Shown here piece by piece: positions 6,200 to 58,270 of a DNA stretch of 64,000 nucleotides (positions are counted from its first letter, which is position 1; each line of letters begins with the position of its first letter). Under the pieces are notes generated by a model. That model was given only the letters and a program-made list of their open reading frames with translations, ran no database searches and had not been told where the DNA came from. The translations under genes were made by a program, and so were the position numbers. This DNA is from an uncultured cyanobacterium (lineage in GTDB: Bacteria; Cyanobacteriota; Cyanobacteriia; Phormidesmidales; Phormidesmidaceae): assembly GCA_963793265.1 (NCBI GenBank), contig CAWBZI010000005.1:192001-256000 (forward strand), given 5' to 3'.

Positions 6200-8272
6200 A
6201 TGGTAGCTCAAAACAAGGCTAAAAAGTCAGCCGAGCAGCTTGCCCAGCGAGCCCTTACCCAACGAGCCAGTGAGCTAAAAGCGCAGCTACAGAAAGCGAG
6301 CTATGCCTACTACGTACTAGATGCGCCTGACCTGCCAGATTCGGTTTACGACCGGCTGTATCGGGAGCTGCAAGACATTGAAACCGAGCATCCTGAGCTA
6401 CTAACGCCTGATAGTCCTACGCAGCGAGTCGGCGCTGAACCGGCTGAGCAGTTCACCTCTATCGCCCACAATATTCCGCTCTACAGCCTGGAAAACGCCT
6501 TTGATATTGAGGAGTATCGCGACTGGCAGGCCCGTTGGCAGCGATTGGAACCCGATGTTGGTGAAACCGATGCGGTGACGGAGCTTAAGATTGACGGCAA
6601 CGCCTTAGCGCTCACGTATGAAAACGGATTGCTCGTTCGAGGCGTAACCCGAGGCGACGGCGTTACGGGTGAAGATATCACTCAAAACGTCCGCACCATT
6701 CGCACGATTCCCCTACGGCTGCACATGCCAGAAGGGCAGAGCCCGCCGCCAGTTGTAGAGGTGAGAGGCGAGGCGTTTTTGCCGTTAGATGTGTTTGAAA
6801 AGATTAACCAGAAGCGTGAGGCGGAAGGGACGGCTTTGTTTGCCAATCCGCGTAATGCCGCCGCTGGAACGCTGCGCCAGCTAAACGCTCAGGCGGTGGC
6901 CGATCGGCGGCTCGACTTTTTTGCCTATACCCTGATCATGCCGGAGGGTATGGGCGATGTGGCCGCGCCGACCGATCAGTGGGAGGCGCTGGAATGCTTG
7001 CAAGCGCTAGGCTTTCGGGTGAATCCTAATCGGCAGATATGCGCTTCGGCTAAAGAGGTTTTTGACTACTATTCAGATTGGGAAGAGAAGCGGCACGAGC
7101 TGCCTTACCTCACGGATGGGGTGGTGGTGAAGCTGAATAGCTTTGAGCTACAAGACCGGCTGGGCTTTACGAATAAGTTTCCGCGCTGGGCGATCGCACT
7201 CAAGTACCCCGCCGAAGAAGTCCCAACCATCCTCGAATCGATCACCGTACAGGTGGGTCGCACGGGCGCAATTACCCCAGTAGCCGAACTCAGCCCCGTA
7301 CAGCTCGCAGGCACCACCGTTGCCAGGGCCACACTGCACAATGCCGACCGGCTGGCCGAGCTAGATTTGCACATTGGCGATACGGTGATCGTGCGCAAAG
7401 CGGGTGAGATTATCCCTGAAGTCGTGCGGGTACTTCAAGATTTGCGGCCCCAAAACGCGCAGCTCTACCGGCTTCCAACCACCTGCCCGGTGTGCGATCA
7501 GCCGGTGGTGAAGCCCGAAGGCGAGGCGGTGACGCGGTGTGTGAATGTGTCTTGCCCGGCGATTTTGCAGGGGTCGATTCGGCACTGGGCGAGTCGGGAT
7601 GCGATGGATATTAGCGGGCTGGGCGATCGCTGGGTGCAGCAGTGGATAGATCAGGGCATGGTGAAATCTGTCGCTGATCTGTACGACCTGACAACAGATG
7701 AGCTGATGACGCTCGATCGGATGGGGGAGAAGCTGGCGACAAAACTGGTGGATGCGATCACCGCATCTAAAACCAGACCCTGGCACAAAGTCCTCTACGG
7801 TTTAGGCATTCGGCTGGTGGGCAGCACGAACGCAAAGCTGCTAGCCGATAATTTTCATTCGGTAGATGTGCTGGCGAGTACGGGGGGAGATGCGATCGCC
7901 CGCGTTTTTGGCATTGGCCCCGAAATTGCCCAATCCGTCCGGCAGTGGTTCCAGGTGCCTGCCAACCAGCAGCTCATCGAAAGGTTGCGCGATGCCGGAG
8001 TGCAGCTAGCCGCCGAAGCCAAGCCACAGAGCGATCGGCCAAAGCCGCTGGCCGGACAAAGTTTCGTGGTTACTGGAACCTTGCCCACTTTGAAGCGATC
8101 TGAAGCTAAAAGCCTCATTGAAGCGGCAGGCGGACGGGTCAGCGGCTCTGTGAGCAGTAAAACTGACTACGTGGTGATCGGTGAAAAGGCCGGATCTAAG
8201 CAGGCCAAAGCTGAAGCGTTAGGGCTTAAGCAGCTTTCTGAGGCAGAACTGTTAGCACTTTTAGAAGACTGA
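6200..8272 (+). CDS. ligA: NAD-dependent DNA ligase
   Basis: ELKIDG adenylation motif, TRGDG, Zn finger CPVC, C-terminal BRCT. Confidence 0.97.
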
Positions 8273-8351
8273 CTGAAAAGCTAATTTCCCATAGCCGCTA
8301 CTCCCTGAGACTACCTGTGTAGGTAACTGCTAACGCGGCAACCGTTGGCCT

Positions 8352-58000: not shown

Positions 58001-58270
58001 CTCCACCAGCAAATCCAGAGTTTTGTGGAGATCTGGGAACTCGTCTAGTGGGGAAGGCAACAGCAGCGTTTCAGGGTCTAGAAATTCCCAGGCTTGTTCA
58101 GGGGTGTAGATACCTCGGTTGATCAAGACCTGGGAGAGTAGCGGAGAAAGGGCGGTGGCCTGAGAAATTTGCTGGGCCTGGGCCTTTTGCGCAGGAAAAA
58201 TTTGCCACCGTTGAGGCGGGATCTGTCGTTTGGTGGGCCGTTCAGTTTTGGGGACGGGCTTGTCGGGCAC
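55034..58270 (-). CDS. recJ: Single-stranded-DNA exonuclease RecJ with long C-terminal extension
   Basis: GDYDADG, TVDNG, TDHH, GTIAD, GPRINA, RGSAR, GGH..AGG and an OB fold in roughly the first 595 aa. Confidence 0.95.
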   Translation of the reverse strand: MPDKPVPKTERPTKRQIPPQRWQIFPAQKAQAQQISQATALSPLLSQVLINRGIYTPEQAWEFLDPETLLLPSPLDEFPDLHKTLDLLVEAIAAQRKILICGDYDADGMTSTALLMRSLRYLKGQVDYAIPSRMDEGYGINTRIVEEFHASGGSIILTVDNGIAAYDPVARARELGLTVILTDHHEVPQRIPPANAILNPKLIREDSPYRGVAGVGVAYILAVCLAQRLDKMQDLTATLLALFTLGTIADLAPLTGVNRRWVKRGLKLLPKSQIPGVQALIEVAGLSEDSALKPEAIGFRLGPRINAVGRIADPQIVIDLLTTDDIGVALQRAMQCEEANKLRRQMCEVIEAQAVDWVEDQQAQGLLELSQERVLVVVQPEWHHGVIGIVASRLVERYGVPVFIGTYEDKAQKEIRGSARSIPEFNVFEALQFCDDLLDRYGGHRAAGGFSFDVNKLRQVKARLKNFACKHLQPEHLKPLVTADVEAELADANLELYSQIDRIHPCGIENPDPVFWTANATVVEQKVIGKTNSHLKLTLKHLAEGEAEPVVMKAIAWRWGQYYPLPRDLDIAYKLRLNEWRGQSNVELELVGVRAAQVNEQPDDGIRPWSANAVDTLDIAKIAKEKTADLAQKTATETISTPAKVAKEIALNLQKELENKASLDESSSLQAKSSLKRSPTDRADVATPIPPYLIEEDSLRVEFYHSSRRYEGMLERESGEQRLSIQNNEGHLLLVQMSDRQGFLYLPEQPPTPVDITNAKYFNLIRAGLSALEVKQKTQLLIKKDELLEEKDAQIVMMKAQIELLEEKIAQLSVEKQQAFATLKTELAAQEDTIQGKEAHIEQMQVQTKAVSDDVALKAAVRADVGDGVWSCLQPDSQKDLQAAYNHYRTSHTSGPDAHIVDYSEAGDRLSSVIVREALTPFIKDLSVFLRGRGITTIGGIPLIDHQPYSLDMLPPLLADQWRSFSSEQLAKQFSSSDATPTLANSSVSVVKVKANGQVSEADRALLTQFFDQWEHSMSKCFSRKGRQAASSLDQISKLRSLATHSQSALYQWQYELMHQLVTGKAGKGGLLKQIFAL

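What the first reader, a model, noticed from the sequence alone, without database searches (positions are those of the whole stretch)
7100..58050. HIP1 sites act as local GC-skew switch points (G-rich before, C-rich after), independent of coding strand
Seen: composition flips sharply across many GCGATCGC sites. Hand counts: HIP1 41177 (minus-strand gene) has 28G/9C in 41101-41160 and 7G/27C in 41191-41250. HIP1 36001 (minus-strand gene) has 25G/5C in 35941-36000 and 6G/19C in 36011-36060. HIP1 25936 (plus-strand gene) has 21G/9C in 25871-25930 and 7G/28C in 25951-26010. The same flip is visible at 7190, 9187, 17163, 21807 (the C-rich run continues through tpiA), 26343, 49345 and 57993. It occurs mid-gene on both strands, so codon or transcription bias does not explain it, and it is dyad-symmetric like the palindrome. 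Known: HIP1 contains GATC/CGATCG methylation targets and its function is unresolved. Inference: this is a mutational footprint of a strand-asymmetric process starting at HIP1, such as nick-directed repair or resection, or ssDNA deamination. I am not aware of it as a standard description. Examples were chosen by eye and some sites (e.g. 7623) do not flip.
Basis: partly seen in the sequence, partly recalled or inferred. Interest (0 to 1): 0.8.

Follow-up and report, generated by a model that had tools for sequence, protein, structure and literature searches.

The report
Strand-skew flip at HIP1 palindromes
In this cyanobacterium almost every copy of the abundant palindrome GCGATCGC (HIP1) sits where the DNA switches from G-rich to C-rich, mostly at silent codon positions, which looks like the scar of a one-directional DNA repair or recombination step that starts at HIP1, whose function is still unresolved.

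Summary
All six hand counts are exact, and 64 of 75 scorable window sites flip. Genome-wide, 6,881 sites show GC skew of +0.36/-0.36 next to HIP1, decaying about e-fold per 90 bp.

- **Specificity:** the flip is absent at 255 other palindromic octamers, at CGATCG or GATC alone, and at orthologous positions in a congener that lack HIP1.
- **Where it sits:** it is strongest at fourfold-degenerate sites (G 0.27 to 0.41, C 0.27 to 0.18). It is equal for sense and antisense flanks and independent of replication arm. It is stronger at older, shared sites.
- **Not simple deamination:** T does not rise at fourfold sites. The base signature resembles this genome's own replication-type skew.
- **Lineage variation:** the flip is clear in 9 of 19 sampled genomes and absent in one HIP1-dense genome (820 sites).

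Best reading (about 45%): a mutational footprint of 5'-to-3' strand removal that starts at HIP1. Fixation bias is not excluded, and no enzyme was identified; Vsr and MutH are absent. I found no description in the papers I searched. This scan noted the same flip before, in other pieces of this genome and in other cyanobacteria.

The parts
339..63990 (.). All 76 HIP1 (GCGATCGC) copies of the window, each the centre of a G-rich to C-rich switch on average. Start coordinates: 339, 1030, 1591, 1983, 2221, 5575, 5912, 7190, 7623, 7892, 8445, 9187, 10863, 11027, 12186, 13026, 14253, 14543, 14782, 16548, 17163, 18443, 18661, 19333, 19414, 19516, 20885, 21492, 21807, 24350, 25936, 26343, 27039, 27591, 29211, 31579, 31991, 32366, 33931, 34398, 36001, 37970, 39066, 39594, 39907, 41177, 42042, 42459, 43282, 45342, 45465, 47091, 47784, 47886, 48504, 49008, 49103, 49237, 49345, 51382, 52431, 53184, 53356, 53866, 55544, 56051, 56604, 57993, 58840, 59050, 59461, 59827, 61444, 62719, 62977, 63983
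   Evidence: 76 matches, 2.0 expected by shuffling. (64 of 75 scorable sites flip, mean difference 0.295 +/- 0.033). (39 in plus-strand genes, 33 in minus-strand genes, 4 intergenic).
41177..41184 (.). HIP1 with the strongest flip in the window, inside a minus-strand DUF1643 gene (41003-41557)
   Evidence: 28G/9C in 41101-41160, 7G/27C in 41191-41250, skew difference 1.07. for the gene.
36001..36008 (.). HIP1 inside a minus-strand ylxR-like gene (35846-36292)
   Evidence: 25G/5C before, 6G/19C after. PF04296, E 6.7e-22.
25936..25943 (.). HIP1 inside a plus-strand NAD-dependent epimerase gene (25749-26744), which also holds HIP1 26343
   Evidence: 21G/9C before, 7G/28C after; fourfold sites 5/0 before, 1/12 after. 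for the gene.
17163..17170 (.). HIP1 with a strong flip in a plus-strand gene
   Evidence: skew difference 0.83 (19G/9C before, 9G/25C after).
7190..7197 (.).
   Evidence: 20G/9C before, 16G/22C after; fourfold sites 11/2 against 3/12.
7623..7630 (.).
   Evidence: 24G/12C before, 18G/11C after; skew difference 0.09.
57993..58000 (.). HIP1 named as flipping that does not flip on all bases 10-70 bp out; it lies in the recJ gene
   Evidence: 19G/14C before, 20G/10C after; fourfold sites 10/0 against 3/4.
21807..21814 (.). HIP1 that flips. The long C-rich run that follows covers minus-strand tpiA (21924-22652) and exceeds the HIP1 decay length.

Best explanation
HIP1 anchors a dyad-symmetric, strand-specific DNA transaction, and the flip is its mutational footprint. 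On each side of the palindrome, the strand that reads 5'-to-3' into HIP1 (3' end at the motif) behaves like the leading-strand sequence of a replication arm: it gains G, loses C, and T is slightly above A.

The geometry that gives this sign is removal of the other strand, 5'-to-3' outward from a nick or break at HIP1. An equivalent is Chi-like end processing that leaves a 3' tail ending at HIP1. Either leaves the inward-reading strand single-stranded, over tracts whose lengths are roughly exponentially distributed with a mean of about 90 nt. Repeated over evolutionary time, strand-biased damage or copying errors rewrite the free positions near every HIP1. Silent codon positions change most, and some amino acids change too.

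Shown: the HIP1 specificity, the symmetry, the concentration at neutral sites, the growth with site age, the decay length, and the likeness to the genome's own large-scale strand skew.

Inferred: that the force is mutational rather than selective, the 5'-to-3' polarity of strand removal, the existence of an incision at HIP1, and the enzymes involved.
For: - **Specific to the full octamer.** HIP1 flips by 0.29. The 255 other palindromic octamers pool to -0.008 (n = 14,014). CGATCG outside HIP1 (n = 832), GATC (n = 13,290) and half-sites are flat. ATCGCGAT sites far from HIP1 give 0.007 +/- 0.020.
- **Tied to HIP1 presence, not to the gene.** Over 900 kb of congener G009 aligned to G000, orthologous positions without HIP1 give 0.006 +/- 0.017 (2-3 mismatches, n = 163) and -0.021 +/- 0.019 (4-8 mismatches, n = 107). 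The genome that carries HIP1 at those sites shows about 0.17-0.24.
- **Grows with age and lingers after decay.** Shared sites give 0.304 and 0.245, against 0.194 and 0.208 for lineage-specific sites. One-mismatch orthologues still show 0.186 +/- 0.031. The C-to-T decay products GTGATCGC and GCGATCAC keep about 0.23-0.24.
- **Sits at neutral sites.** Fourfold skew is about +/-0.6 at 0-10 bp, +/-0.43 at 10-30 bp and +/-0.2 at 60-100 bp. Codon shuffling removes about 70% of the all-site flip (0.223 to 0.067).
- **A DNA-level symmetry.** Sense and antisense flanks are alike (G 0.420 / C 0.153 against G 0.431 / C 0.157). The change in ln(G/C) is +/-0.74 to 0.83 in G-rich, neutral and C-rich chromosome arms alike.
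- **Same kind of force as the replication-type skew.** The four-base signature is similar. Intergenic DNA under-responds to both by a similar factor: 0.20 for the large-scale skew and about 0.13-0.29 for HIP1.
- **Shape fits tracts from a processive event.** The signal saturates near the site (about 1.1 with or without a second HIP1 9-60 bp behind) and adds further out. The decay at isolated sites is exponential-like: 1.10, 0.79, 0.56, 0.33, 0.16.
- **Tracks general strand skew across genomes.** Across 19 genomes the flip correlates with background strand-skew amplitude (Spearman 0.59).
- **Literature.** After meiotic breaks the 3'-tailed strands accumulate C>N and A>N changes, with the same polarity (Hinch 2023, PMC7615360, passages). 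A homologous HIP1 raises integration up to 7-fold in a Chi-like, AddAB-independent way (Kamoku and Nielsen preprint, abstract and discussion).
Against: - There is no direct evidence of a nick, break or single-stranded DNA at HIP1.
- Base composition at equilibrium cannot separate mutation bias from fixation bias.
- T does not rise at fourfold sites, and purines go from 50% to 60%. Simple deamination of exposed DNA is therefore insufficient, and several mutation channels would have to combine.
- No incision enzyme was found. Vsr is absent from G000 (98.97% complete), MutH is absent from 5 of 5 genomes, and MutL, RecJ and UDG are present in flip-positive and flip-negative genomes alike.
- HIP1-rich genomes G017 (0.005 +/- 0.017, 820 sites), G063, G069 and G045 show no flip. 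HIP1 alone is not enough.
- The proxy for decay at the methylated cytosine does not track the flip.
- In Synechococcus PCC 7002, HIP1 was reported not to be a restriction target.
- The correlation with background skew is noisy, and related genomes are not independent.
Confidence: 0.45

Rival explanations
1. Fixation bias rather than mutation. Selection or biased gene conversion favours G (and T) over C (and A) on the strand that ends 3' at HIP1. One route: G/T-rich 3' tails may load RecA better at a recombination hotspot. Another: heteroduplexes formed next to HIP1 during transformation or recombination may be corrected with a base preference.
For: - The shift fits a simple log-linear model, 'G favoured, C disfavoured, A and T neutral', at fourfold and twofold sites and in all neighbour contexts.
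- HIP1 sites are themselves conserved far beyond neutral expectation: 395 of 656 aligned G009 sites are shared at about 75% DNA identity (Xu 2018 abstract).
- HIP1 in homology arms stimulates recombination.
- RecA's preference for GT-rich DNA and MutS's poor repair of C.C mismatches are recalled from memory, not tested here.
Against: - The signature and the intergenic-to-fourfold response ratio match the replication-type skew, which is usually taken to be mutational.
- The effect saturates near the site instead of adding.
- It would require weak selection at roughly a quarter of all silent sites.
- It is absent in some HIP1-rich genomes.
Confidence: 0.2
2. HIP1-directed mismatch repair with one-way excision (an Elhai-type model). 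A nick on the new strand at HIP1 allows excision only 5'-to-3'. Replication errors of the outward-running strand are then corrected, while those of the inward-reading strand persist. Polymerase error biases would make the inward-reading strand G- and T-rich.
For: - Same polarity and symmetry as observed.
- G/A rises more than T/C (0.60 against 0.32). That fits a recalled excess of A:T-to-G:C errors in repair-deficient bacteria.
- Elhai 2015 proposed a methyl-C-directed MutH analogue acting at HIP1 (passages).
- MutL and RecJ are present.
Against: - No MutH homologue in 5 of 5 genomes; mutH is reported absent from all cyanobacteria (PMC5101192, passages).
- The decay length of about 90 bp is short for mismatch repair, which in E. 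coli works over about a kilobase (recalled).
- MutL and RecJ do not distinguish flip-positive from flip-negative genomes.
Confidence: 0.15
3. Reverse causality. HIP1 arises or survives preferentially where a G-rich stretch already meets a C-rich stretch.
For: - The octamer is itself G-leaning on its left half and C-leaning on its right.
- Silent sites are saturated between G000 and G009, so an older pre-existing skew could have decayed in the lineage that lacks HIP1.
Against: - Orthologous positions without HIP1 are flat.
- Seven-of-eight precursors such as GCGATCGA/G/T and A/C/TCGATCGC show no flank skew at all.
- Older sites are more skewed than younger ones.
- No other process is known that would create thousands of such switch points.
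Confidence: 0.04
4. Coding artefact. The peptides or codon contexts that HIP1 encodes bring particular neighbouring codons with them.
For: About 30% of the all-site flip survives synonymous shuffling, and amino-acid usage differs upstream and downstream.
Against: - The same proteins lack the flip in the congener where HIP1 is missing.
- The flip is similar in all three reading frames (0.58-0.66).
- It is present around intergenic HIP1 and extends more than 100 bp.
- The amino-acid shifts follow codon G/C content (Val, Gly, Glu, Met against Thr, Pro, His, Asn, Ile), as expected for a consequence of the pressure and not its cause.
Confidence: 0.01

Closest known systems
Replication-associated GC skew of bacterial chromosomes (leading strand G over C, T over A)
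   Same: Same four-base signature in this genome. Same concentration at fourfold sites with a weak intergenic response. Same kind of knock-on effect on amino-acid usage (the replication analogue is recalled).
   Different: It is anchored at an 8-bp palindrome repeated 6,888 times, decays over about 100 bp rather than spanning a chromosome arm, has the sign of a terminus at every site, and is independent of the arm in which the site lies.
Strand-asymmetric mutation around meiotic double-strand-break hotspots in humans (Hinch et al. 2023, PMC7615360; passages read)
   Same: A point source with mirror-image asymmetry. The strand left single-stranded by 5'-to-3' resection loses C and A. The polarity is identical to the HIP1 flanks.
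   Different: That case rests on observed new mutations at mapped breaks and extends 1-2 kb. Here only the equilibrium composition is seen, the scale is about 100 bp, and no break at HIP1 has been shown.
Chi sites and the Chi-like behaviour reported for HIP1 (Kamoku and Nielsen 2024 preprint; abstract and discussion read)
   Same: An over-represented octamer that stimulates homologous recombination. Processing would leave a 3' tail ending at the site, which is the strand found to be G-rich here.
   Different: HIP1 is palindromic and methylated, and the effect did not need AddAB. No local skew gradient is part of the description of Chi as I recall it.
Methyl-directed mismatch repair (Dam/MutH) and Elhai's proposed methyl-C-directed MutH analogue at HIP1 (PMC4390886; passages read)
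   Same: A methylated palindrome containing GATC as the place where a strand is nicked and excised.
   Different: No MutH or Vsr homologue was found. Elhai's model addresses how HIP1 copies arise, not flank composition. Neither 'skew' nor 'asymmetr' occurs in that paper.

Membership tests
Replication-associated GC skew | Sign set by replication direction, constant along a chromosome arm, switching at origin and terminus | tested here: not met
   The HIP1 effect has the same size and symmetry in G-rich, neutral and C-rich 50-kb blocks (change in ln(G/C) +/-0.74 to 0.83). It switches at every HIP1.
Replication-associated GC skew | Base signature: G over C and T over A on one strand, strongest at silent sites | tested here: met
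   normalised shifts for G/A, G/T, C/A, C/T, T/A are 0.73, 0.62, -0.27, -0.39, 0.11 for HIP1 and 0.60, 0.43, -0.40, -0.57, 0.17 for the large-scale skew.
Break-and-resection mutational asymmetry (as at meiotic hotspots) | Mirror-image asymmetry with C and A lost on the 3'-ending strand on each side | tested here: met
   on the strand reading into HIP1, C goes 0.27 to 0.18 and A 0.23 to 0.19. Polarity as in the passages.
Break-and-resection mutational asymmetry (as at meiotic hotspots) | A mapped break or single-stranded tract at the centre | not testable with these tools
   Only assembled contigs of public runs were held, so molecule ends cannot be read.
Chi-type recombination hotspot | Over-represented short sequence | tested here: met
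   76 copies against 2.0 expected in the window; 6,888 in the genome.
Chi-type recombination hotspot | Recognised by a RecBCD/AddAB-type helicase-nuclease; stimulates exchange on one side | not testable with these tools
   Literature only: the stimulation in PCC 7002 did not need addAB.
Dam/MutH methyl-directed mismatch repair | A MutH-family nicking endonuclease | tested here: not met
   PF02976 found in 0 of 5 genomes, G000 included.
Very-short-patch repair | A Vsr endonuclease | tested here: not met
   PF03852 not found in G000, which is 98.97% complete.
Extended palindrome or hairpin (REP-like element) | Base-by-base complementarity of the two flanks | tested here: not met
   Mirror complementarity equals expectation beyond 3 bp and is below it at positions 1-3 (0.19 against 0.27 at position 1).
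Oriented skewed motifs (KOPS/Chi-like words) as the cause | One or a few oriented k-mers carrying the asymmetry | tested here: not met
   No dominant oriented 3- to 6-mer. The shift is similar in every neighbour context (0.68-1.11).

The most novel reading that the evidence does not exclude
HIP1 is the two-way entry or incision site of an unidentified strand-specific DNA-processing system of cyanobacteria: a palindromic counterpart of Chi or of a MutH site. From it, one strand is removed 5'-to-3' for about 100 nt on each side. The flank skew would then be a quantitative fossil record of that system's activity. It is high in this genus, graded across families and null in some HIP1-rich lineages, so comparative genomics could be used to find the enzyme.
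Probability: 0.35. Interest if true: 0.9.

Novelty: new variant of a known kind. Interest (0 to 1): 0.8.

Why it matters
HIP1 has been known for about three decades without an agreed function (abstracts of Xu 2018 and the 2026 GBE paper).

A polar, strand-specific footprint at nearly every copy says that something directional happens to DNA at HIP1. It also supplies the geometry (which strand, which direction, about 100 nt), which any proposed function must explain: uptake signal, recombination hotspot or repair signal.

The footprint is large. About a quarter of the genome lies within 100 bp of a HIP1. G:C at silent sites reaches about 2.5:1 at 10-30 bp, and amino-acid usage shifts too (Val 8.2% against 6.2%, Thr 5.1% against 6.9% either side). 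HIP1 therefore shapes codon usage and protein composition locally. Codon-bias, skew-based origin finding and selection scans in cyanobacteria should take this into account.

The lineage variation gives a comparative handle for finding the machinery.

Tried and rejected
- **Hairpin or extended palindrome:** rejected. There is no excess mirror complementarity.
- **A single oriented word (KOPS/Chi-like):** none found.
- **Plain cytosine deamination:** rejected as sufficient, because T does not rise at fourfold sites.
- **Okazaki-fragment or lagging-strand-only effect:** rejected. The effect is symmetric in all chromosome arms.
- **Intergenic weakness as evidence for a codon-level cause:** rejected. 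Intergenic DNA under-responds to the large-scale skew just as much (slope 0.197).
- **Methylated-C decay proxy** (GTGATCGC plus its complement, over GCAATCGC plus its complement): no relation to the flip. Examples: G000 2.2, G009 0.9, G058 0.36, G017 0.71, G066 3.4, G063 5.0.
- **Candidate enzymes:** Vsr absent in G000. MutH in 0 of 5 genomes; MutL-C, RecJ-OB and UDG each in 5 of 5. None separates strong-flip genomes (G000, G009, G040) from no-flip genomes (G017, G020).
- **RecJ C-terminal extension:** found with this query in only 3 of 19 genomes (G000, G009, G037), so it is not required.
- **CGATCG methyltransferase comparison:** not done. G000 gave 8 C5-methyltransferase matches (7-8 genes), and I could not tell which one is CGATCG-specific.
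- **Polarised substitutions:** not possible. Congeners are only about 65-82% identical in alignable DNA.
- **Public reads:** only assembled contigs were held, and only 40 of about 780 variant places were printed. No molecule ends and no divergence-versus-distance test could be obtained.
- **Wider sampling:** The correlation with background skew therefore rests on short samples for most genomes.
- **Side-specific loss of skew at half-mutated HIP1** (read from the numbers): the difference of about 0.02 is within my rough estimate of the noise.
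Full report
**Observation in the window.** The window is G000:C5:192001-256000 of a 5.68-Mb genome with 50.7% G+C. 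It holds 76 copies of GCGATCGC against 2.0 expected. With flanks 10-70 bp from the motif, 64 of 75 scorable sites are more G-rich before than after, with a mean skew difference of 0.295 +/- 0.033. Random window positions give 0.004, with 49.8% positive. The gene strands and tpiA are as stated. The 700-bp C-rich run over tpiA is too long to belong to the HIP1 effect.

**Genome-wide shape.** Over 6,881 sites the GC skew is +0.358/-0.359 at 0-5 bp, +0.18/-0.19 at 10-20 bp, +0.10/-0.11 at 50-60 bp and +0.05/-0.06 at 100-130 bp. It is near baseline beyond about 300 bp. There is a weak T-over-A / A-over-T component of 0.04-0.08. The whole distribution of sites is shifted: mean 0.241, SD 0.246, 84% positive, unimodal. 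Random sites give mean 0.002, SD 0.224. At isolated sites, ln(G/C) at fourfold sites falls 1.10, 0.79, 0.56, 0.33, 0.16 over 10-30, 30-60, 60-100, 100-150 and 150-250 bp. That is about e-fold per 90 bp. Between two copies 200-320 bp apart it runs as a straight sawtooth from -1.5 to +1.5.

**Controls.** The 255 other palindromic octamers pool to -0.008 (n = 14,014). The one apparent exception, ATCGCGAT, is flat when it lies at least 150 bp from HIP1 (0.007 +/- 0.020, n = 100). CGATCG outside HIP1 (n = 832), GATC (n = 13,290) and half-sites are flat. Among one-letter variants at least 150 bp from any HIP1, the C-to-T decay products GTGATCGC (n = 248) and GCGATCAC (n = 306) keep a flip of about 0.23-0.24. 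GCAATCGC, GCGATTGC and GAGATCGC keep weaker ones of 0.09-0.12. The rest show none.

**Codon positions.** I called genes myself (4,686 genes, about 86% coding). Fourfold-degenerate sites carry the signal: about +/-0.6 at 0-10 bp, +/-0.43 at 10-30 bp, +/-0.30-0.36 at 30-60 bp and +/-0.2 at 60-100 bp, in plus- and minus-strand genes alike. Codon positions 1 and 2 move only within about 60 bp. Shuffling synonymous codons within genes lowers the all-site flip from 0.223 to 0.066-0.068. About 70% is therefore placement of synonymous codons. The rest is in protein sequence and spacers.

**Effect on proteins.** Residues 3-12 codons upstream of HIP1 are enriched in Met, Val, Glu and Gly. Those downstream are enriched in Thr, Asn, Ile, His and Pro. 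For example, Val is 8.2% against 6.2% and Thr 5.1% against 6.9%.

**A logical point.** G-before/C-after is unchanged by reverse complementation, so its presence in genes of both strands is automatic. The informative facts are different:
- In coding orientation, the upstream and downstream effects have equal size (G 0.420 / C 0.153 against G 0.431 / C 0.157 at 10-20 bp).
- All three reading frames of HIP1 behave alike (0.58-0.66).
- The effect is the same in chromosome blocks with strongly positive, neutral or negative background skew (change in ln(G/C) +/-0.74 to 0.83).

This argues for a DNA-level, dyad-symmetric cause that is independent of transcription and of fork direction.

**What changes.** Take the strand that reads 5'-to-3' into HIP1 and compare fourfold sites 10-60 bp out with sites more than 400 bp from any HIP1. 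A goes 0.23 to 0.19, C 0.27 to 0.18, G 0.27 to 0.41 and T 0.23 to 0.21. The shifts are ln(G/C) +0.82, G/A +0.60, G/T +0.51, C/A -0.22 and C/T -0.32, and they are similar in every neighbour context (0.68-1.11). At twofold sites C/(C+T) falls from 0.46 to 0.31 and G/(A+G) rises from 0.55 to 0.65. T does not rise at fourfold sites, so plain cytosine deamination is not enough. No oriented k-mer carries the effect. The flanks are not complementary base by base, and there is a deficit of longer palindromes at the first three positions.

**Calibration against the genome's own large-scale skew.** I masked HIP1 zones and looked at the background. Fourfold-site ln(G/C) varies between 200-kb blocks from -0.42 to +0.43. 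Intergenic DNA follows with a slope of only 0.197 (r = 0.70). The HIP1 effect has an intergenic-to-fourfold ratio of about 0.13-0.29. It depends on the type of position and not on whether the HIP1 itself is genic or intergenic. The four-base signature of the large-scale skew is of the same kind as that of HIP1 flanks. The strand reading into HIP1 is thus 'leading-strand-like'.

**Causality and age.** I aligned 900 kb of the congener G009 to G000; 62% aligned at about 65-82% identity. Of 1,026 G009 HIP1 sites, 395 are shared at the exact orthologous position, 261 are G009-only and 370 are unaligned. G000 has 220 private sites in the aligned part.
- Shared sites flip by 0.304 (G000) and 0.245 (G009).
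- Private sites flip by 0.194 and 0.208 in the genome that has them.
- The orthologous HIP1-less positions, with no other HIP1 within 120 bp, give 0.186 +/- 0.031 with one mismatch (n = 64), 0.006 +/- 0.017 with 2-3 mismatches (n = 163) and -0.021 +/- 0.019 with 4-8 mismatches (n = 107).

So the same genes lack the flip where HIP1 is missing. The flip grows with site age and lingers briefly after decay. One limit: silent sites are saturated at this distance, so an ancient pre-existing skew cannot be formally excluded.

**Other genomes.** HIP1 is abundant in many families of the phylum. I sampled 38-900 kb from each of 18 further genomes and measured the fourfold-site half-flip (10-100 bp) in those and in G000.
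- It exceeds 3 standard errors in 9 of 19: G000 0.646, G009 0.623, G040 0.484, G058 0.363, G034 0.331, G067 0.223, G049 0.209, G037 0.201, G028 0.166.
- It is 0.069 +/- 0.029 in G020, 0.005 +/- 0.017 in G017 (820 sites, the HIP1-densest genome sampled) and about 0 in G063, G069 and G045.
- The two no-flip genomes sampled along the chromosome also have little large-scale skew: SD of fourfold ln(G/C) is 0.067 and 0.123, against 0.39 in G000 with the same estimator.
- Over the 19 genomes the flip correlates with background skew (Spearman 0.59, p = 0.008).

This last point is suggestive only. Most samples are short, the estimator is noisy and related genomes are not independent.

**Search for the machinery.**
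- G000 gave 8 C5-methyltransferase matches (7-8 genes) and no Vsr.
- MutH is absent from 5 of 5 genomes. MutL-C, RecJ-OB and UDG are present in 5 of 5.
- The recJ gene lies in the window (55034-58270, minus strand, 1,078 aa). Its core is at residues 97-590, and about 490 C-terminal residues match no Pfam family.
- That extension was found with this query in 3 of 19 genomes (G000, G009, G037), so it is not required for the flip.
- The ratio of methyl-C decay products to a control variant does not track the flip.
- Public runs held only assembled contigs, and the printed variant list was truncated. Neither molecule ends nor divergence against distance could be read.

**Mechanism.** The sign requires that the strand ending 3' at HIP1 is the one that gains G and loses C and A. 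Three geometries would give this:
- 5'-to-3' removal of the opposite strand from a nick or break at HIP1, exposing that strand as ssDNA.
- Chi-like processing that leaves a 3' tail ending at HIP1.
- Mismatch repair that excises only 5'-to-3' from HIP1, so that errors of the inward-reading nascent strand persist.

The first two match the polarity and the depleted bases seen at human meiotic breaks (Hinch 2023, passages). They also match the Chi-like, AddAB-independent stimulation of recombination by homologous HIP1 (Kamoku and Nielsen, abstract and discussion). The third matches Elhai's proposal (passages) but lacks a nicking enzyme. Saturation near the site, the exponential decay and the likeness to replication-type skew favour a mutational origin. 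A fixation bias remains possible, because equilibrium composition cannot separate the two. Statements about RecA's GT preference, MutS specificity, RecBCD/Chi geometry and polymerase error biases are recalled, not tested.

**Novelty.** Four full-text searches returned 2, 4, 5 and 6 papers, none about flank composition: HIP1 + GC skew + cyanobacteria; highly iterated palindrome + skew; HIP1 + GCGATCGC + flanking; GCGATCGC + synonymous + strand. Seventeen papers hold 'highly iterated palindrome'; in the 16 that were listed, no title or abstract opening addresses it. 'Skew' (in this sense) and 'asymmetr' do not occur in Xu 2018, Elhai 2015 or the 2026 GBE paper. Subscription-only papers, such as the original HIP1 papers of the 1990s, are not in the library, and supplements were not opened. 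This scan's own earlier notes describe the same flip in two other pieces of this genome and in four other cyanobacterial genomes. They are unchecked AI notes and not independent evidence. My results agree with them and add four things: the orthologous-position control, the calibration against replication-type skew, a precise null in a HIP1-dense genome, and the negative enzyme and methylation-proxy tests.

Noticed in passing
window 55034-58270 (-): The recJ gene encodes 1,078 aa. DHH, DHHA1 and RecJ_OB domains end near residue 590. About 490 C-terminal residues (a linker, a small domain, a coiled-coil-like stretch and a terminal domain, judged by eye) match no Pfam family. The extension was found with this query only in G000, G009 and G037, out of 19 genomes.
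   Followed up: partly
window 21800-22650: A continuous C-rich run on the plus strand (skew -0.25 to -0.43) covers the whole minus-strand tpiA gene. It is much longer than the HIP1 decay length, so tpiA's coding strand is unusually G-rich.
   Followed up: partly
G063, G066, G074, G069, G030, G045, G042: Genomes of the same phylum but outside the window's class carry about 1,000-2,900 HIP1 copies each. The four of these I sampled (G063, G066, G069, G045; 63-70% G+C) show little or no flank flip.
   Followed up: partly
G000 against G009, 900 kb: 395 of 656 aligned G009 HIP1 sites (60%) lie at exactly the orthologous position in G000, although the aligned DNA is only about 65-82% identical. This agrees with published evidence that HIP1 sites are conserved.
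   Followed up: partly
genome-wide, positions +/-1 to 3 next to HIP1: Longer palindromes are avoided. Mirror complementarity at the first flanking position is 0.19 against 0.27 expected, although G before and C after are each enriched. GGCGATCGCC makes up 565 of 6,888 copies.
   Followed up: no
whole genomes: G000 has 766 copies of GTGATCGC/GCGATCAC, the product of C-to-T change at the cytosine reported to be methylated. Its congener G009 has 288. G000's ratio to the control variant GCAATCGC/GCGATTGC is 2.2 against 0.9, suggesting faster HIP1 decay in G000.
   Followed up: no
G000, G009, G040 against G017, G020: The three strong-flip genomes each have a second, weaker UDG-family match. The two no-flip genomes have only one. 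With five genomes this may be chance.
   Followed up: no
window 42998-43072 (-): A tRNA-Arg(ACG) gene. It explains the depth spike and contig breaks seen there when metagenome contigs were laid on the window.
   Followed up: yes
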